IMG/VR virus record: IMGVR_UViG_3300014625_000033
Length of the DNA stretch: 12,579 nt
Source of the DNA: a virus
Taxonomy: Duplodnaviria; Heunggongvirae; Uroviricota; Caudoviricetes
Strand: one strand, 5' to 3'
Shown here: in pieces, positions 642 through 9,671 of the stretch
Numbering within the stretch: the stretch's first letter is position 1
How the letters are laid out: each line of letters begins with the position of its first letter
The notes under the pieces: generated by a model
What the model saw: only the letters and a program-made list of their open reading frames with translations
Databases searched by the model: none
Told to the model about the DNA's origin: nothing
Made by a program: the position numbers and the translations under genes

Positions 642-848
642 CTTCATTTTCACTTTCTTAAATCTAACGACAGATGGCTAACATTTAAGTATTGTGAAAT
701 ATTATCAAATGTAATCATCATTGATTTACAAAAGATACATTTTGCCCCGAAAGGATTTCTGTCAGAAACATCAAAAGATGATGTTCTATACTGAGAACCA
801 TGGCAACACGGGCATCTAAAGTGAATATGGTTTGTAATATTTTCTACC

Positions 849-1061
849 TCAAAGTGCCACTACATGAACAGCTGCAGGGCCTTTAGGTCCGTTCTCAATA
901 CCAAATTCGACTTCCTGATTCTCAGTTAACGTTTTGAAATCGTTGCTCTGAATAGCTGAGAAATGCACAAACACATCTTTGCTACCATCTTTCGGCGTGA
1001 TGAAACCAAAACCTTTTTCAGGGTTAAACCATTTCACTAAACCAGTCATTTTGTTAGACAT
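849..1061 (-). CDS. cspI: Cold-shock protein CspI (CspA family, S1-like cold-shock domain), 70 aa
   Basis: Translation [70 protein letters not shown] carries the RNP1/RNP2 motifs (KGFGFI, VFVHF) and matches CspI as I recall it. SD AAGG upstream of the tandem ATGs. Confidence 0.9.
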
Positions 1062-1204
1062 CATTATTACCTTTTGAAGAAGTTAGCCCTTGGGCAGAAT
1101 GGTCCGAAAAAAAATATCAGAAAGAAAAACCAACAAGGAAATCTCAAGAGGTACAAATAATAAAATTATAACAATGACTGCTTCAGATAATTTTGTAACA
1201 AACC

Positions 1205-1241
1205 AGAACACCATTAACGCATGATTAACCAACCATAGCAA
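1205..1241 (-). promoter_or_regulatory. Candidate cspA-type promoter for cspI: -35 TTGCTA (1241..1236), 17-bp spacer, -10 GTTAAT (1218..1213), AT-rich UP-like region upstream; predicts a 5'UTR of about 145 nt
   Basis: Minus-strand read: TTGCTAtggttggttaatcatgcGTTAAT. This resembles the cspA promoter architecture (TTGCAT / CTTAAT), and the predicted leader length matches the long leaders typical of cold-shock genes. Confidence 0.4.
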
Positions 1242-2764: not shown

Positions 2765-2980
2765 TTACTCTCCTCTCGCAGCCTTACGCCTGTCTTCTTT
2801 AATCTTGAAATAAAGATTTGTCAGATACGTCAGCATGCCAAATACCAGACTACCCAATACACCTATTGCCGCCCACTGTGAGGGCGTGACTTTATCGAGC
2901 AACTGTAAAAACCAGTAGCCAGCACTGCCTGCAGAGGTGCTGTAGGCGATGCCCGTTGTTAACTTATCCATGGATTTCAT
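2765..2980 (-). CDS. essQ: Class II pinholin (phage 21 S21-like) with dual-start motif MKSM, 71/68 aa
   Basis: [71 protein letters not shown] has two TM segments and matches S21 as I recall it. ATGs at 2980 and 2971; strong SD GGAGGTGAGG. The ORF-track upstream extension is not used. Confidence 0.85.
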
Positions 2981-3070
2981 AGCCTCACCTCCGCAGATAA
3001 CGGATGGTGTACACGGTTTGGTTCGAAGAAGGAAAGAAGTTACATTAGCGTAAGGCCCGAACATCTATTC

Positions 3071-3101
3071 AAAAAGAAAAACGCCAGCAATTATTCTGGC
3101 G
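3071..3101 (-). terminator. Intrinsic terminator downstream of the AraC-family gene: hairpin CGCCAG-(8 nt)-CTGGCG followed on the minus strand by a T-rich run (TTTTTCTTTTT)
   Basis: Plus strand reads aaaaagaaaaaCGCCAGcaattattCTGGCG. It sits between the cargo gene and the holin start. Confidence 0.5.
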
Positions 3102-3170
3102 TAGCTAAAAATATCGTATAATCTTACACTTCAAAAAATAACTTTATAAAATACCATCACATCATATCTT

Positions 3171-3884
3171 CTAAGAAAATCTTGATAAATATTGGTGCGG
3201 AGGCACACCAAAATATCCTCTAAAAACACTTACAAAATATGATGCATTGTCATACCCGCATATTCCCGCCACCTTGCCGACAGTATGGTTACTGTAGATC
3301 AATAATCTTTGCGCCATCATCATTCGTTCTTCAAGAATTAATTTACTAAACGATAATCCTTCGTCTTTTAATTTTCTTTTTAACAAACTCTCGCTCATAT
3401 ATAATCTTGAAGATATATCACAAAGTCTCCATGACGCAGAGATATCCGAGTGAATAATAGCCTTAACTTTACAACCTAAGCTATTAAGACTTCCGAACAA
3501 AAAACTTTGCACTATTTTCTCTGAAGATAAGACAGCAAGACATGCAAGTGATATTTGATTTCTAACTACATCCACGGTTTTGCTATCACAATTCAAGCAT
3601 GCAACCAAGTTCTTTAACAATGAAAAATCTTCACATTCTACTATCAAGTATGACGGATAAAACCTTCTTACAGAAAAAGGTGAGAGTGTGTAGTTTTTAA
3701 AGAAATCATTAACTGTTTTCTCCTCAACATCTACGATCATTAGATGATCTGTATTTGACGAAAAAAGATCTTTTAAATTGTATTCAATGAGGACAGCATT
3801 TCCTTTTTTAAACAAAATATCTTCTTTACCAATTCGGACACCAAACGAGTTCAACACCAAAATGATAGAACATATGTATGGCAT
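3171..3884 (-). CDS. AraC/XylS-family transcriptional regulator (AppY/Rns-like short type), 237 aa from ATG at 3884; markedly AT-rich cargo gene
   Basis: C-terminal double HTH typical of AraC/XylS (…SESLLKRKLKDEGLSFSKLILEERMMMAQRLL…VGKVAGICGYDNASYFVSVFRGYFGVPPHQYLSRF). SD AGGTGGA precedes the ATG at 3884; the ORF-track start at 3893 is GTG. Base composition is far lower in GC than the flanking phage genes. Confidence 0.8.
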   Translation of the reverse strand: MPYICSIILVLNSFGVRIGKEDILFKKGNAVLIEYNLKDLFSSNTDHLMIVDVEEKTVNDFFKNYTLSPFSVRRFYPSYLIVECEDFSLLKNLVACLNCDSKTVDVVRNQISLACLAVLSSEKIVQSFLFGSLNSLGCKVKAIIHSDISASWRLCDISSRLYMSESLLKRKLKDEGLSFSKLILEERMMMAQRLLIYSNHTVGKVAGICGYDNASYFVSVFRGYFGVPPHQYLSRFS

Positions 3885-4290
3885 ATTATCCACCTGATAT
3901 CATTGGGGTTACACCAGGTAAGTATAGGTGGAAAATCAATATTCGCCAGTTCAACAATAAGGAAAATCTCATTGCATCACAACTATAAAACCATGTGTTT
4001 AACTCACAAAAAACAAATCATTAAACTAATCTGTTATATTATAATAGCTGCGTGCAATAATAATATTATATGCTCTTAATATTCACTTGAAATATCTTCA
4101 TATAAAAACAGATTGAATAAAATCTTTTGGGGCTGGTATGTTTACCAACATTAAATTGCATCTCAATGTTTTCTTTAGCGTGAACAGGATTTTTATAAAA
4201 ACTGACACTATGAGCATCATAGCGTAGTTTTTACGATTGTAAATATCCTGCATACAGGAACTCATCACTTTCAGATGATATCGCATACAG

Positions 4291-5250
4291 TTAATTCACC
4301 ATCAGTCTTAGAGCCAGTTCTTCCGGATAGGGATCGAAGTAGTTCTGTGTAAGCAAGTAATCATTAGGATACTCACCCAGATAATGCTTCAGCAGAGTCA
4401 ACGGCGCAAGAAGAGGCAATGTGCCAAAGCGATAGTTAAGTATAACCTCGCTCAACTCTTTACGCTGGCGTGTACTTAAGTAATTACTAAAATACCCCTG
4501 TATATGCATCAGCACATTCGTGTGATTTTTACGTGATGCTGGTTTTCTGAGAATCGCCATCAGATTATCACGATACACCTCAAAGTATGATTCAAGGTCC
4601 GCCCACTCGTGTATTGCAGCCACAAATGGTCCCATATCTTTATAGCCTGCCTGGCTATGCGCCAACAACTGAAGCTTATAACGACTATGAAAAGCTAATA
4701 ACTCTCTTCTTGATAATTTCTCCTTGTAAAGGTGATTGAGCTCATGCAAAGCAAAAACTCTTTCAATAAAATTCTCACGAAGCACTGGATCATGTAATCG
4801 CCCATCCTCTTCAACCGGTAGCCAGGAAAACTTTTCCATCAAAGTGCTCGTAAATAGTCCCACTCCATCTTTACGACCTCGATTACCATTTTCATCATAG
4901 ACACGCACGCGCTCCATGCCACAGCTGGGAGATTTAGCACAAACCACAAACCCCGATACATCCTTTAATTTGTCCATATAAGAACGACTAAACTCTGTCA
5001 TTCTCTCTGTCACATCCTCATTCTGGTCGTGGCTGAAACACATCCGTATATTTCCTTGCTTCGAGCGCACAAGTCGTAGAGCAGGACGCGGAACTGGCAG
5101 CCCTATAGCCATTTCCGGACATACTGGTCTGAATGTTACCCATTCCACTAATTTGTCCATTAAAAAGTCATCTCTTTTGTGACCACCATCAAAACGAACA
5201 GCAGAACCGCCCAAACAACCGCTGATCCCAATCACAGGTTTTTTTATCAT
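4291..5250 (-). CDS. DUF523 (TudS-like, putative [4Fe-4S] thio-nucleobase desulfurase fold) fused to DUF1722 (YbgA-like), 319 aa
   Basis: N-terminus MIKKPVIGISGCLGGSAVRFDGGHK with further conserved Cys in PVCPEM and VVCAKSPSCG matches the DUF523/TudS pattern; the C-terminal half resembles DUF1722/YbgA. Strong SD GGGGGAGGA before the ATG at 5250. Confidence 0.75.
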   Translation of the reverse strand: MIKKPVIGISGCLGGSAVRFDGGHKRDDFLMDKLVEWVTFRPVCPEMAIGLPVPRPALRLVRSKQGNIRMCFSHDQNEDVTERMTEFSRSYMDKLKDVSGFVVCAKSPSCGMERVRVYDENGNRGRKDGVGLFTSTLMEKFSWLPVEEDGRLHDPVLRENFIERVFALHELNHLYKEKLSRRELLAFHSRYKLQLLAHSQAGYKDMGPFVAAIHEWADLESYFEVYRDNLMAILRKPASRKNHTNVLMHIQGYFSNYLSTRQRKELSEVILNYRFGTLPLLAPLTLLKHYLGEYPNDYLLTQNYFDPYPEELALRLMVN

Positions 5251-5442
5251 TTCCTCCCCCTTGACTAATTCATTAACACATAAACTTTGTAGTGCACGGA
5301 CTAAATTGCCTTTCTGGCTTCATCACTGACAATTTTTCTGTTATTGACTATTCCTAATATAGTAGGAAAGTTCTTTAAGTGATCGGTCGTACTCATCTAT
5401 CTTTCATACTTACTCTCAACTATCAAAAGTACAGGATTTATT

Positions 5443-5967
5443 ATGAAGTTATGGCCTGTGTTGACTGGCATTGCACTCTCTTTCACTCTTATAGCATGTA
5501 AGGCCCCGACACCACCTAAAGGTGTGCAGCCGATTACAAATTTTGACGCCAACCGCTACCTCGGAAAATGGTATGAAATAGCTCGCCTCGAGAACTGGTT
5601 CGAACGTGGTCTGGAACAGGTCAGCGCTACTTATGAAAAACGGAACGACGGAGGGATTCGCGTACTTAACCGTGGATACGATCCAACGAAAAACAAATGG
5701 AGCGAGAGCGAAGGTAAAGCATACTTTACTGGAGATACTAAAACTGCAGCGTTGAAAGTTTCGTTTTTTGGCCCCTTCTATGGTGGCTATAATGTAATCA
5801 AACTGGATGATGAGTATAAGTATGCTCTTGTCAGTGGTCCGAACAGAGAATACCTATGGATTCTGGCAAGGACCCAAACTATTCCAGATAATGTAAAAGC
5901 AGACTATGTGCGTACCGCTCAAAAGTTGGGATTCAATGTCAATGAACTATTATGGGTTAAACAATAA
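5443..5967 (+). CDS. blc: Bacterial lipocalin (Blc family) outer-membrane lipoprotein, 174 aa
   Basis: Lipoprotein signal with lipobox LIAC, then lipocalin motifs (FDANRYLGKWYEIARLENWFERG; KVSFFGPFYGGYNVIKLD; YLWILARTQ), nearly collinear with E. coli Blc as I recall it. SD AGGA 7 nt upstream. Transcribed opposite to all flanking phage genes. Confidence 0.85.
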   Translation: MKLWPVLTGIALSFTLIACKAPTPPKGVQPITNFDANRYLGKWYEIARLENWFERGLEQVSATYEKRNDGGIRVLNRGYDPTKNKWSESEGKAYFTGDTKTAALKVSFFGPFYGGYNVIKLDDEYKYALVSGPNREYLWILARTQTIPDNVKADYVRTAQKLGFNVNELLWVKQ

Positions 5968-5995
5968 AATCCCCACCCGAAATGATACTTATTAG

Positions 5996-6022
5996 AAAAA
6001 AACCAGCCTTTGGGGAGGCTGG
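5996..6022 (-). terminator. Intrinsic terminator (candidate tR') downstream of the Q gene: minus strand CCAGCC-tccccaaa-GGCTGG followed by T7
   Basis: Plus strand reads aaaaaaaCCAGCCtttggggAGGCTGG. It lies about 100 nt downstream of the Q stop, where lambdoid phages place PR'/qut/tR'. It also lies just downstream of the convergent blc-like gene. Confidence 0.55.
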
Positions 6023-6122
6023 CTAAATCAGGAAACAAGCTGTTATATGATAATAACTACGTTGCGATTCCAACATTTAAAATGTTAGACTAATGAAAAT
6101 CAGACAGCAACTTTTCCTTTAA
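6023..6122 (-). promoter_or_regulatory. Candidate late promoter PR' / qut region between Q and the terminator
   Basis: Positional inference from lambdoid architecture. Minus strand contains TTGGAA-(17-18 nt)-CATATA-like elements, but I could not pick a single convincing -35/-10 pair. Confidence 0.3.
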
Positions 6123-6500
6123 TTATTTCGAACAATCAGCATCCATCTCCAATCGGAGATCCAACACCATCAGCATGCCCTCCACTACGCCCTCAGCTTT
6201 CTGGAGCATCCTGCCAACCCAACAATCAGATCGCCCATGCTTACGTGCAAGCGCCATAAAAGTCATGCCGCCGACATAATAGTCCACCAATAAATCATGT
6301 AAATCGCTGTTGTTTTTTTTCAGGCGAGCCATACATTCACAAATGATCATCGCGTCATCGTCACAGCATTGCGGACGAGATCTTACTTTTGAAGGAATTA
6401 ATCCCTTAAAACCGGCGGCAATGGACGACCAGGTCACATCTTCATGATTATTAGCCGCCCATGCCCCCCAACGCTCAAGAACCATCTGAATATCACGCAT
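6123..6500 (-). CDS. quuQ: Late-gene antiterminator Q (phage 82 / QuuD family), 125 aa from ATG at 6500
   Basis: [63 protein letters not shown]... matches the QuuD/QuuQ sequence as I recall it, including the Cys-rich zinc motif. SD GGAG precedes the ATG at 6500; the ORF-track start at 6515 is TTG. Confidence 0.85.
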
Positions 6501-6517
6501 CAACTTACTCCACAAAA

Positions 6518-9613: not shown

Positions 9614-9671
9614 TTTCTGGTGACGTTTGGCGGTATCAGTTTTACTCCGTGACTGCTCTGCCGCCGTTTTT
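9614..9671 (+). ncRNA. dicF: DicF small regulatory RNA (Hfq-dependent, represses ftsZ translation)
   Basis: Sequence TTTCTGGTGACGTTTGGCGGTATCAGTTTTACTCCGTGACTGCTCTGCCGCCGTTTTT matches the E. coli DicF sequence I recall almost base for base, including the terminal hairpin and U-tract. Confidence 0.9.

What the first reader, a model, noticed from the sequence alone, without database searches (positions are those of the whole stretch)
5443..5967. Blc-type lipocalin paralog encoded antisense to the phage late transcript
This is a full-length outer-membrane lipocalin lipoprotein (lipobox LIAC) on the strand opposite to every neighbouring phage gene and convergent with Q. A Q-modified late transcript would run antisense through it, so its expression would be confined to the lysogenic state and shut down on induction. 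Phage-encoded outer-membrane lipoproteins often act in superinfection exclusion or envelope remodelling.
Basis: partly seen in the sequence, partly recalled or inferred. Interest (0 to 1): 0.45.

Follow-up and report, generated by a model that had tools for sequence, protein, structure and literature searches.

The report
Lipocalin cargo gene in a lambdoid prophage
This is a real, intact outer-membrane lipocalin gene carried as accessory cargo by a lambda-like prophage of E. coli; the gene was already known from such phages, and what is added here is that it came with its neighbour rudS from a stress locus of other enterobacteria, not from the host's own blc.

Summary
Observation confirmed. 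Window 5443-5967(+) encodes an intact 174-aa Blc-family lipoprotein (lipobox LIAC). It is the only plus-strand gene among minus-strand phage genes and is convergent with Q.

It is already known. The cassette occurs in 1146 of 5426 complete E. coli genomes and in plaque-forming phages (1H12, IdasGreatGrand). Mathieu et al. 2020 listed "blc" as a moron in more than half of their infant-gut Lambdaviruses.

New here:
- It is not a copy of host blc (58% identity). It belongs to a separate Blc clade (73-80% identity). Chromosomal members of that clade, in Enterobacter, Leclercia, Buttiauxella and Cedecea, lie divergent from an MlrA-like MerR regulator.
- In many of those loci the regulator is followed by rudS, a tRNA 4-thiouridine desulfidase. 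The phage carries blc and rudS back-to-back with the regulator deleted, and the blc upstream region is still colinear with the ancestral intergenic region.
- All 84 copies examined are intact (pN/pS 0.12-0.29). This window's allele has radical changes at conserved positions (R52W, G65E, P145Q).

The antisense, lysogen-only expression model fits the layout: a terminator between Q and blc, and two more before the holin gene. It remains untested. Nothing supports superinfection exclusion. Function is inferred as envelope or lipid stress protection.

The parts
5443..5967 (+). blc-type lipocalin lipoprotein CDS (174 aa)
   Evidence: ORF. Pfam Lipocalin_2 at 7.5e-43. NCBIfam Blc subfamily above cut-off. 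Matches PDB Blc at about 1e-66. Intact in 84 of 84 copies.
5443..5499 (+). Type II signal peptide ending in lipobox L-I-A-C (5488-5499); +2 residue is Lys
   Evidence: Read directly from the sequence. L-V/I-A-C-K is conserved in all 15 chromosomal members of the clade.
5334..5442 (+). blc upstream region, colinear with the merR-blc intergenic region of chromosomal homologues
   Evidence: 30 of 52 conserved positions match in an ungapped register. Shuffles give mean 13.8, sd 3.1 and a maximum of 26 in 20000; other registers reach at most 23.
5406..5413 (+). CATACTTA, a -10-like element in the position of the conserved CTACACTT of chromosomal blc promoters
   Evidence: Alignment. K-12 blc has CTACACTT at the equivalent distance from its ATG. 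The changes at -13 and -12 make its activity uncertain.
5356..5361 (-). TATATT on the - strand, a retained -10 of the ancestral merR promoter, now facing rudS
   Evidence: The block AATATA.TA.GAA is conserved, with the same 49-nt spacing to the blc -10 element. Its role as a promoter is inferred.
5994..6024 (-). Intrinsic terminator (9-bp GC-rich stem plus U7) between Q and the blc 3' end; candidate late-leader terminator tR'. On the + strand the same hairpin lacks a U tract.
   Evidence: Terminator scan. The - strand fold has z = -4.3; the + strand fold has z = -0.4. The stem is almost invariant across the 83 loci with full flanks.
6075..6151 (-). Zone holding candidate late promoter(s): TGGAGA-18-AATAAT (6151-6122) and TTGCTG-17-TAACAT (6110-6082)
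   Evidence: The first was found by the scan; the second was read by eye. Neither is verified. There is no homology with the DLP12 or 434 late leaders.
6123..6515 (-). Antiterminator Q (Pfam PF06530); the likely true start is the ATG at 6500
   Evidence: Pfam at 8e-51. It is 85% nt identical to K-12 quuD over 366 nt.
4291..5250 (-). rudS (TudS desulfidase fused to DUF1722; annotated 'YbgA family'), divergent partner of blc
   Evidence: Pfam 2-thiour_desulf plus DUF1722. It is 92% identical to phage 1H12 gp66, which is the 'RudS_vir' tested in PMC11417400.
4205..4225 (-). Terminator-like hairpin after rudS
3171..3893 (-). AraC/YdeO-like regulator, 33.5% GC; third cargo gene with a separate origin
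   Evidence: Pfam HTH_18. Best NCBIfam hit is YdeO, below cut-off. GC content.
3081..3102 (-). Strong terminator between the AraC-like gene and the holin gene
2765..3064 (-). P21-type holin, first lysis gene downstream of the cargo
   Evidence: Pfam Phage_holin_2_1 at 6e-34.

Best explanation
The ORF is a functional Blc-family outer-membrane lipocalin lipoprotein. It is carried as accessory cargo (a 'moron') in the gap between Q and the holin gene of a Qin/21-like lambdoid prophage.

Origin. It is not a duplicate of the host blc. Together with the adjacent rudS it forms a block of about 1.7 kb. That block descends from a chromosomal locus in which blc is transcribed divergently from an MlrA-like MerR regulator gene, and in many species that gene is followed by rudS. 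In the phage the regulator, and a transthyretin-like gene, have been deleted. blc and rudS now face away from each other across 192 bp.

Transcription (inferred).
- blc is transcribed from the remnant of its ancestral promoter towards Q.
- It ends near a hairpin that, on the other strand, is a strong intrinsic terminator just downstream of Q, the candidate tR'.
- In a lysogen, late-promoter transcripts would stop at that terminator, leaving blc free to be expressed.
- After induction, Q-modified RNA polymerase would read through it, across blc in antisense, and then through rudS, the AraC-like gene and two further terminators to reach the lysis genes. This would oppose blc expression.

Product (inferred). 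The protein would be lipidated, sorted to the outer membrane facing the periplasm, and bind lipids such as lysophospholipids or fatty acids, or possibly tetrapyrroles. This would help the lysogen maintain its envelope under stress. Its genomic ancestry points to near-UV or photo-oxidative stress as well as stationary-phase stress.

What is shown: gene identity, integrity, clade, co-ancestry with rudS, and layout. What is inferred: promoter activity, timing of expression, ligand and phenotype.
For: Identity.

Cargo status and invariant layout:
- The order holin(-) araC(-) rudS(-) blc(+) Q(-) is found in about 75 of 83 loci, on two different phage backbones.
- It also occurs in viable phages.
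- The cassette is present in 1146 of 5426 complete E. coli genomes.
- It is published as a moron (PMC6969025).

Separate clade:
- 73-80% identity to the MerR-adjacent homologues, against 57-61% to the gdx/ampC-adjacent clade that contains K-12 blc.
- Bootstrap support is 187/200 and 199/200 for the two clades.

Co-ancestry with rudS:
- Enterobacter, Leclercia, Buttiauxella, Raoultella and a metagenome contig all show rudS(-) [ttr(-)] merR(-) | blc(+).
- In those loci RudS is 70-72% and Blc 73-80% identical to the phage proteins.
- The upstream region is colinear.
- Both phage genes have the same unusual composition, 43.8% and 43.3% GC, against 57-59% in the chromosomal copies.

Purifying selection:
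- 84 of 84 copies are intact; pN/pS is 0.12-0.29; 30 of 44 polymorphic sites are at third codon positions.
- Against chromosomal copies, synonymous sites are saturated (pS 0.8-0.85) while pN is 0.12.

Layout for insulation:
- Three - strand terminators lie at 6024-6001, 4225-4205 and 3102-3081.
- K-12 DLP12 has the same design: quuD(+) nmpC(-) essD(+) ... rzpD(+) borD(-).

Stress link:
- RudS_vir from phage 1H12 lowers tRNA s4U, and rudS genes lie in light-responsive, MerR-controlled loci (PMC11417400).
- A lipocalin is the last gene of a sigmaE/ChrR-controlled CFA-synthase and FAD-oxidoreductase cluster in S. maltophilia, up 165-fold in a chrR mutant (PMC11832516).
- E. coli Blc is reported to bind lysophospholipids and haem or tetrapyrroles and to respond to starvation and osmotic stress (PMC8177097; PMC7026729).
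Against: - No expression data of any kind were found for the phage copy.
- The consensus scan found no sigma-70-like promoter on the + strand in 5251-5442.
- The retained -10 element has lost the -13C and -12T of the ancestral CTACACT, and the conserved GAATGAAG box is gone. The promoter may therefore be weak or dependent on an unknown factor.
- The late promoter itself could not be located by homology.
- The window's allele carries W52, E65 and Q145. In 115 close homologues position 52 is R in 113 and H in 2, position 65 is always G, S, A or T, and position 145 is P, T or S in 113 with a single Q and a single R. This particular copy may be functionally altered or impaired.
- The link to light or photo-oxidative stress is guilt by association and was seen only in Enterobacterales, plus one literature case. 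More distant lipocalin loci showed no such neighbours.
Confidence: 0.6

Rival explanations
1. Superinfection exclusion or receptor masking. The outer-membrane lipoprotein would block a phage receptor or DNA entry, as Cor and Llp do for FhuA, protecting the lysogen from other phages.
For: - It is a prophage-encoded outer-membrane lipoprotein placed where lysogenic-conversion genes sit.
- Mathieu et al. found membrane proteins predominant among lambda morons, including sie.
Against: - No similarity to any PADLOC defence model.
- It scores only as a lipocalin in Pfam and NCBIfam.
- It is 73-80% identical to housekeeping chromosomal lipocalins and evolves conservatively. Exclusion proteins engaged with phages would be expected to diversify faster.
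- The lipocalin cavity and the conserved lipocalin sequence motifs (GxW, SCR3 Arg) are retained.
Confidence: 0.08
2. Passenger without a selected function of its own. blc would simply ride with the selected rudS gene, or with the Q/qut module to which it is tightly linked, and contribute nothing to phage or host.
For: - Homology with other phages ends inside the 3' end of Q, so the Q C-terminus, the leader and the cargo travel as one module.
- The window allele has radical substitutions at near-invariant positions.
- The promoter looks degraded.
Against: - 84 of 84 copies are intact, against 78 of 80 for rudS and 62 of 75 for the AraC-like gene in the same loci.
- pN/pS is 0.12-0.29.
- Synonymous sites are saturated while amino-acid divergence is only about 12% since the split from chromosomal copies. 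This implies long-term purifying selection while on phages.
Confidence: 0.17
3. Mainly a cis-acting role. Convergent blc transcription, which meets a hairpin without a U tract on its own strand, would read into the late leader and Q as antisense RNA. This would damp Q and late-promoter activity and stabilise lysogeny, in the manner of lambda paQ. The protein would be secondary.
For: - On the + strand the hairpin lacks a U tail and folds no better than shuffled sequence (z = -0.4).
- blc stops 156 nt from the Q stop codon, convergent with it.
- DLP12 has another convergent gene, nmpC, at the same place.
Against: - The strong conservation of the protein sequence is not explained by a purely cis-acting role.
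- The blc promoter looks weak.
- There are no data on read-through.
Confidence: 0.1

Closest known systems
'blc, a bacterial lipocalin' moron of infant-gut Lambdaviruses (Mathieu et al. 2020, PMC6969025; phages Lambda_ev*, 1H12, 2E9, 4B5)
   Same: It is the same gene. The proteins are 96% identical to the window protein and are annotated 'Lipocalin Blc'. They have the same position and orientation between Q and the lysis genes.
   Different: Nothing essential. Those phages carry the R52/G65/P145 allele, whereas the window has W52/E65/Q145. The paper did not analyse origin, orientation or function.
E. coli chromosomal Blc (b4149; PDB 1QWD, 2ACO, 3MBT)
   Same: The same family and fold, a lipobox lipoprotein, the GxW and SCR3 Arg motifs, and the same length. 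The K-12 promoter has the CTACACTT -10 element that also marks the ancestors of the phage copy.
   Different: Only 57.6% identical. It belongs to a different clade, the gdx/ampC-adjacent one rather than the MerR-adjacent one. The phage copy lacks the intact CTACACT element.
Chromosomal MlrA-like regulator / (ttr) / rudS | blc locus of Enterobacter, Leclercia, Buttiauxella and Raoultella. The RudS paper (PMC11417400) notes the MerR-rudS pairing in E. cloacae and Salmonella ORF242/ORF319.
   Same: The same two genes in the same relative orientation. Blc is 73-80% and RudS 70-72% identical. The blc upstream region is colinear.
   Different: In the phage the regulator and the transthyretin-like gene are absent. 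GC content is 43-44% against 57-59%. The rudS upstream region is not recognisably homologous.
Antisense outer-membrane morons of lambdoid phages: nmpC/lc porin between quuD and essD, and bor/borD after Rz (K-12 DLP12; lambda)
   Same: A gene for an outer-membrane protein placed in the late operon on the opposite strand. nmpC occupies exactly the same slot between Q and the holin gene and is also convergent with Q. Phage 1H12 carries both blc and a Bor-like gene in this antisense arrangement.
   Different: The protein families are unrelated (a porin, and the Bor lipoprotein). For lambda bor, expression in lysogens and a serum-resistance phenotype are established (Barondess and Beckwith, from memory). 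For blc nothing has been tested.
Superinfection-exclusion lipoproteins Cor and Llp
   Same: They are prophage-encoded outer-membrane lipoproteins.
   Different: There is no sequence or domain similarity. They are much smaller and are specific to FhuA.

Membership tests
Blc bacterial lipocalin (Pfam PF08212, NCBIfam NF007786) | Lipocalin_2 domain spanning the mature protein | tested here: met
   E=7.5e-43, residues 35-174 against profile positions 2-146 of 146.
Blc bacterial lipocalin (Pfam PF08212, NCBIfam NF007786) | Full-length score above the curated Blc subfamily cut-off | tested here: met
   312.6 bits against a cut-off of 267.
Blc bacterial lipocalin (Pfam PF08212, NCBIfam NF007786) | Type II signal peptide with a lipobox Cys and a non-Asp residue at +2 (outer-membrane sorting) | tested here: met
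   L16-I17-A18-C19-K20. L-V-A-C-K is found in 14 of 15 clade members. No dedicated signal-peptide predictor was available.
Blc bacterial lipocalin (Pfam PF08212, NCBIfam NF007786) | Lipocalin structurally conserved motifs (GxW in SCR1, Arg in SCR3) aligned with solved Blc | tested here: met
   G41-K42-W43 and R143 align with 3MBT, 1QWD and K-12 Blc.
Blc bacterial lipocalin (Pfam PF08212, NCBIfam NF007786) | Near-invariant residues of close homologues (R52, a small residue at 65, P/T/S at 145) | tested here: not met
   The window allele has W52, E65 and Q145. In 115 homologues position 52 is R in 113 and H in 2, position 65 is always G, S, A or T, and position 145 is P, T or S in 113, Q in one and R in one. 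The other main phage allele meets all three.
Blc bacterial lipocalin (Pfam PF08212, NCBIfam NF007786) | Stress-type (sigmaS-like) promoter with a CTACACT -10 element | tested here: inconclusive
   Ancestors and K-12 have CTACACTT. The phage has TCATACTT at the same position.
Blc bacterial lipocalin (Pfam PF08212, NCBIfam NF007786) | Outer-membrane localisation and binding of lysophospholipid or fatty acid | not testable with these tools
   Needs fractionation and ligand-binding assays.
Canonical enterobacterial blc locus (ampC-blc-gdx/sugE) | Adjacent to gdx/sugE and ampC | tested here: not met
   K-12 context. The phage copy and its closest relatives lack this context and fall in another clade.
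Phage moron / lysogenic-conversion gene | Non-essential insert between conserved phage modules, absent from related phages | tested here: met
   It lies between Q and the holin gene. 348 phage records share the 5' part of Q without blc. DLP12 has nmpC in that slot.
Phage moron / lysogenic-conversion gene | Its own promoter and terminator, independent of phage operons | tested here: inconclusive
   The opposite strand guarantees independence from the late operon. The promoter is only inferred by homology. The hairpin downstream lacks a U tract on the blc strand.
Phage moron / lysogenic-conversion gene | Expressed from the repressed prophage and gives the host a phenotype | not testable with these tools
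   No transcriptomic or phenotypic data were found.
MlrA-like-regulated blc/rudS stress locus | blc and rudS in one locus, divergent orientation, homologous intergenic DNA | tested here: met
MlrA-like-regulated blc/rudS stress locus | MlrA-like MerR regulator gene 112-119 bp upstream of blc | tested here: not met
   Absent from the window and from all phage loci. No close relative of the regulator was found in viral contigs.
Superinfection-exclusion lipoproteins (Cor, Llp and similar) | Sequence or profile similarity to a known exclusion or defence protein | tested here: not met
   PADLOC gave no hits at E<=0.01. PHROG 2809 has 'unknown function'.

The most novel reading that the evidence does not exclude
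blc and rudS together would form a phage-borne sunlight-stress cassette, captured from an MlrA/LitR-type regulated locus and rewired to the phage life cycle.
- blc, antisense to the late operon, would be made only in the lysogen. It would protect the envelope against near-UV or photo-oxidative lipid damage, or against tetrapyrrole photosensitisers.
- rudS, in sense with the late operon, would be boosted by Q after UV-triggered induction. It would strip 4-thiouridine from tRNA and so spare phage protein synthesis from the near-UV growth delay.
Probability: 0.15. Interest if true: 0.6.

Novelty: already known. Interest (0 to 1): 0.3.

Why it matters
The gene sits in about a fifth of complete E. 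coli genomes, so a real phenotype would be a common, phage-delivered trait of gut E. coli. Candidate phenotypes are envelope maintenance, lysophospholipid handling and tolerance of light or oxidative stress. E. coli Blc variants have been linked to gut lysophosphatidylethanolamine levels and inflammation (PMC7026729), so a second, phage-borne lipocalin with two protein alleles deserves a look in that context.

The tracing of blc and rudS to one regulator-less copy of a chromosomal stress locus is a clean example of how morons are assembled. It also gives a concrete, testable hypothesis for both genes. As a discovery, however, it is incremental. The gene, its family, its presence on lambda-like phages and the antisense-moron layout are all already described.

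Tried and rejected
- 'Copy of host blc or a chromosomal junction': rejected. Identity to K-12 Blc is 57.6%, the clade is different, and there are phage genes on both sides.
- Consensus promoter scan: no sigma-70-like site on the + strand upstream of blc. Within-phage footprinting was uninformative because the 83 loci with full flanks are nearly identical there.
- Locating pR' by homology failed. Similarity to DLP12 quuD and to 348 other phages stops inside the 3' end of Q.
- The region upstream of rudS (5251-5333) is not recognisably homologous to the conserved inverted-repeat promoter upstream of chromosomal rudS. The exact deletion junction is therefore undefined.
- A search for a phage intermediate still carrying the MerR regulator found none.
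- PADLOC gave no hits for blc, rudS, the AraC-like gene, DUF968 or DUF1327.
- Literature searches for the RefSeq protein accession and for lipocalin with photolyase, MerR, cyclopropane and DUF1365 found nothing. Sumi et al. 2020 (PMC7515241) is not held. The Pseudomonas LitR paper does not mention a lipocalin.
- A first neighbour-joining tree mis-extracted K-12 Blc because of its strand. The first bootstrap run timed out, and the second was spoiled by two truncated sequences. This was fixed.
- More distant lipocalin loci (Flavobacterium, Bacteroidota, Methylophaga and others) showed no MerR, RudS or amine-oxidase neighbours within 6 kb with my queries. The stress-locus association is therefore not claimed beyond Enterobacterales.
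- Whether the AraC-like neighbour is a PsrA/PsrB/PatE homologue was not resolved, because no sequence was available.
- Structure prediction was not run. Alignment to three solved Blc structures at E about 1e-66 (58% global identity to K-12 Blc) makes the fold certain.
Full report
**1.
Window 5443-5967(+) is an uninterrupted ORF of 174 codons.
- It matches Pfam Lipocalin_2 at E=7.5e-43.
- It passes the curated NCBIfam cut-off for 'outer membrane lipoprotein Blc' over its whole length, 312.6 against 267 bits.
- It aligns with the solved E. coli Blc structures 3MBT, 1QWD and 2ACO at E about 1e-66.
- The N-terminus MKLWPVLTGIALSFTLIAC|K is a classical type II signal peptide. It has a lipobox (L-I-A-C) and Lys at +2, which by the established Lol sorting rule predicts an outer-membrane lipoprotein.
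- AGGA lies 5 nt before the ATG.

**2. Surroundings.**
All real genes between 1 and 7986 are on the minus strand. In order they are:
- a Csp gene with a cspA-type 5' UTR (Rfam);
- Rz with embedded Rz1, lysozyme, DUF1327 and a P21-type holin;
- an AraC/YdeO-like regulator (3171-3893);
- a TudS+DUF1722 'YbgA family' gene (4291-5250);
- on the other side of blc, antiterminator Q (6123-6515, Pfam PF06530) and DUF968.

An immunity region, DicF, an exonuclease, an excisionase and an integrase follow. The window is 100% identical to E. coli strain H2 and is a Qin-like lambdoid prophage.

**3. It is common and already described.**
- The blc segment occurs in 1146 of 5426 complete E. coli genomes, almost always on the chromosome.
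- The exact protein is seen on at least 1000 contigs, and it has its own PHROG, 2809.
- Twelve deposited phage genomes carry it at 96-97% protein identity, annotated 'Lipocalin Blc'. They include plaque-forming phages 1H12 (NC_049947) and IdasGreatGrand, with the same gene order.
- Mathieu et al. 2020 (PMC6969025) list 'blc, a bacterial lipocalin' among morons present in more than 50% of their 19 infant-gut Lambdaviruses.
- No functional test of the phage copy was found.

**4. It is not the host's blc.**
K-12 blc lies between ampC and gdx, and its product is 57.6% identical to the window protein.

One-genome-per-species loci and exact-protein look-ups show two clades.
- The first is a gdx/ampC-adjacent clade: K-12, Citrobacter, Salmonella, Atlantibacter, and one of the two Buttiauxella izardii copies. 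It is 57-61% identical to the phage protein.
- The second clade is 73-80% identical. Its chromosomal members are in Enterobacter (7 species), Leclercia, Buttiauxella, Raoultella, Cedecea and Scandinavium. They lie 112-119 bp divergent from a MerR-family regulator that has MlrA_helical and MlrA_C domains. The regulator's best NCBIfam hit is MlrA, below cut-off, and the next is CarH.
- Neighbour-joining bootstraps give 187/200 for phage plus the MerR-adjacent clade and 199/200 for the gdx clade. A split separating the phage proteins from K-12 appears in 200 of 200 replicates.

**5. blc came with its neighbour.**
Behind the regulator the chromosomal loci carry one of two gene sets.
- The first is (transthyretin-like)-rudS.
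- The second, in Cedecea and Scandinavium, is a SnoaL - SDR - FAD amine oxidase - DUF1365 - CFA-synthase-like cluster.

The chromosomal RudS proteins are 70-72% identical to window 4291-5250. They have the same orientation relative to blc.

The phage arrangement, rudS(-) | blc(+) across 192 bp, is therefore the same locus with the regulator and the transthyretin-like gene deleted. Three further results support this.
- The 96 nt upstream of the blc ribosome-binding site (5334-5429) align without gaps to the ancestral merR-blc intergenic region. They match 30 of 52 conserved positions. Shuffles give 13.8 +/- 3.1 with a maximum of 26 in 20000, and the best alternative register gives 23.
- Two blocks survive with an identical 49-nt spacing. 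One is AATATA.TA.GAA, which on the other strand is the TATATT -10 of the merR promoter. The other is the -10 region of blc.
- blc and rudS share an unusual composition, 43.8% and 43.3% GC with GC3 of 41%. The Enterobacter copies have 57-59% GC (GC3 68-76%), and the AraC-like gene has 33.5%. The donor is therefore an unsampled lower-GC relative, or residence on phages has been long.

Homology to the chromosomal loci is confined to the two coding regions and the blc upstream region.

**6. The neighbour has a known activity.**
Jamontas et al. 2024 (PMC11417400) named TudS+DUF1722 fusions RudS. Over-expression of the RudS genes in their Table 1 lowers tRNA 4-thiouridine 4.7- to 26-fold. That table includes 'RudS_vir', which is gp66 of phage 1H12 and the gene next to 'Lipocalin Blc' gp65. 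gp66 is 92% identical to the window protein.

The authors note that rudS genes lie in light-responsive, MerR/LitR-controlled operons, including in E. cloacae and Salmonella. They also report that RudS lessens the growth arrest after UVA.

Independently, in S. maltophilia a lipocalin is the last gene of a sigmaE/ChrR-controlled CFA-synthase and FAD-oxidoreductase cluster. It is induced 165-fold in a chrR mutant (PMC11832516).

E. coli Blc itself is reported to respond to starvation and high osmolarity. It binds lysophospholipids with nanomolar affinity and binds haem or another tetrapyrrole (PMC8177097). A single G84E change lowers LPE binding (PMC7026729).

These are associations, not tests of the phage protein.

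**7. Selection.**
- In 84 copies (window plus 83 phage or prophage loci) the ORF is always 174 codons with no internal stop. There are 17 nucleotide alleles and 9 protein alleles.
- pN/pS against the window allele is 0.12-0.29, and 30 of 44 polymorphic sites are third positions.
- Against chromosomal homologues, synonymous sites are saturated (pS 0.80-0.85) while pN is 0.12.
- In the same loci rudS is intact in 78 of 80 and the AraC-like gene in 62 of 75.
- Oddity: the window allele (31 of 84 copies) has W52, E65 and Q145. In 115 close homologues position 52 is R in 113 and H in 2, position 65 is always G, S, A or T, and position 145 is P, T or S in 113 with a single Q and a single R. The other main allele (38 of 84, including 1H12) keeps R52, G65 and P145.

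**8. Transcription layout.**
- A 9-bp GC-rich hairpin followed by U7 lies on the minus strand at 6024-5994, which places it between Q and the blc stop codon. The leader folds with z = -4.3 and the stem is nearly invariant. By position it is the candidate tR' of the late leader.
- Candidate late promoters lie at 6151-6122 and 6110-6082 (by eye). Neither could be checked by homology, because similarity to DLP12 and to 348 other phages ends inside the 3' end of Q.
- Two more minus-strand terminators follow rudS (4225-4205) and the AraC-like gene (3102-3081, just before the holin gene).

In lambdoid phages the lysis and morphogenesis genes depend on Q-antiterminated transcription from the single late promoter next to Q. 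This is established knowledge. In viable phages with this layout the late transcript must therefore cross blc in antisense and ignore three terminators. In the repressed prophage the same terminators would insulate blc and the lysis genes.

On the blc strand the hairpin has no U tract (z = -0.4), so some read-through into the leader and Q is possible.

The layout has precedents. K-12 DLP12 has quuD(+) nmpC(-) essD(+) and rzpD(+) borD(-). Phage 1H12 has both blc and a Bor-like gene in antisense.

**9. The blc promoter.**
Chromosomal members of both clades carry CTACACTT about 27-33 nt before the ATG. This fits the sigmaS-type extended -10 consensus, which I recall from memory. The phage has TCATACTT in the same place, having lost -13C and -12T but kept A-11 and T-7. 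The conserved GAATGAAG box is gone. The consensus scan reports no sigma-70-like site. A promoter remnant is therefore present, but its strength and sigma dependence are unknown.

**10. Interpretation.**
- Best explanation (confidence about 0.6): blc is a conserved lysogenic-conversion lipocalin, co-captured with rudS from an MlrA-like-regulated stress locus. It would be expressed from its own promoter in the lysogen and opposed by late transcription after induction, and it would serve envelope or lipid maintenance under stress.
- Rivals: a passenger without selected function (0.17); a cis-acting anti-Q transcription unit (0.10); superinfection exclusion (0.08; no PADLOC hit, and conservative evolution).
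- Most novel reading not excluded: a phase-split 'sunlight cassette', with blc expressed in the lysogen and rudS boosted by Q after UV induction (about 0.15).

**11. Verdict.**
The feature is real and correctly described, but ordinary in kind and already published as a moron. The layout-based expression model is reasonable but untested. The exclusion idea has no support. The added value is the origin of the blc-rudS block, its clade assignment and the unusual allele. Interest is 0.3.

Noticed in passing
window 4291-5250 (-): The gene annotated 'YbgA family' is a RudS-type tRNA 4-thiouridine desulfidase (TudS+DUF1722). It is 92% identical to phage 1H12 gp66, the 'RudS_vir' tested in Jamontas et al. 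2024. It lies in sense with the late operon, so Q would boost it on induction.
   Followed up: yes
window 5596-5598, 5635-5637, 5875-5877 (codons 52, 65, 145 of blc): This window's allele has W52, E65 and Q145. In 115 close homologues position 52 is R in 113 and H in 2, position 65 is always G, S, A or T, and position 145 is P, T or S in 113 with a single Q and a single R. The other common phage allele keeps the ancestral residues. The window allele may be functionally altered.
   Followed up: partly
window 3171-3893 (-): A low-GC (33.5%) AraC/YdeO/GadX-like regulator is the third cargo gene. It is disrupted or partial in 13 of 75 related loci, and by IS1 in strain 503829 (L001). It may be related to the prophage regulators PsrA, PsrB and PatE of EHEC, which control acid resistance, but this was not tested.
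   Followed up: partly
window 3081-3102 (-) and 4205-4225 (-): Intrinsic terminators follow the AraC-like gene and rudS. Each cargo gene therefore looks like a separate transcription unit, and the holin gene is shielded from cargo transcription unless RNA polymerase is Q-modified.
   Followed up: partly
window 803-1208 (-): Rfam cspA thermoregulator (111 bits) covering the 5' UTR and the cold-shock protein gene at 849-1064, downstream of the lysis cassette.
   Followed up: no
window 9615-9666 (+): Rfam DicF antisense sRNA (72.5 bits) in the early-left region, as in Qin.
   Followed up: no
window 6123-6160 (-) and phage hits: Similarity of Q to quuD and to 348 other phage Q genes stops about 20 nt before the Q stop codon. 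The Q C-terminus, the late leader and the cargo are therefore inherited as one module, with a recombination joint inside Q.
   Followed up: partly
L089 (JARKOR010000135.1, 'Candidatus Nanosynbacter' MAG, 2113 bp): This contig carries blc (97%) and Q (98%) of the E. coli prophage. It is almost certainly a binning contaminant in the MAG.
   Followed up: no
L004 5001-5516 (Morganella phage IME1369_01, KY653118): A 50%-identical Blc lipoprotein lies between the lysis genes and the terminase, on the same strand as the late genes. This is an independent acquisition of a lipocalin by another temperate phage, in the opposite orientation logic.
   Followed up: no
L091 4546-4647 and equivalents (chromosomal rudS upstream): A conserved inverted repeat, ACTTGGACAA-N-TTGTGTAAGT, is embedded in a TTGGAC...TAAGTT promoter-like element upstream of chromosomal rudS. 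It is a likely MerR-type operator and is not retained in the phage.
   Followed up: no
hit H21 (NZ_CP028733): The window matches its 100%-identical source genome in 3 pieces spread over 19.9 kb, and the features under the match include an AIPR family gene (annotated name only). The cause of the 7.3-kb excess was not examined.
   Followed up: no
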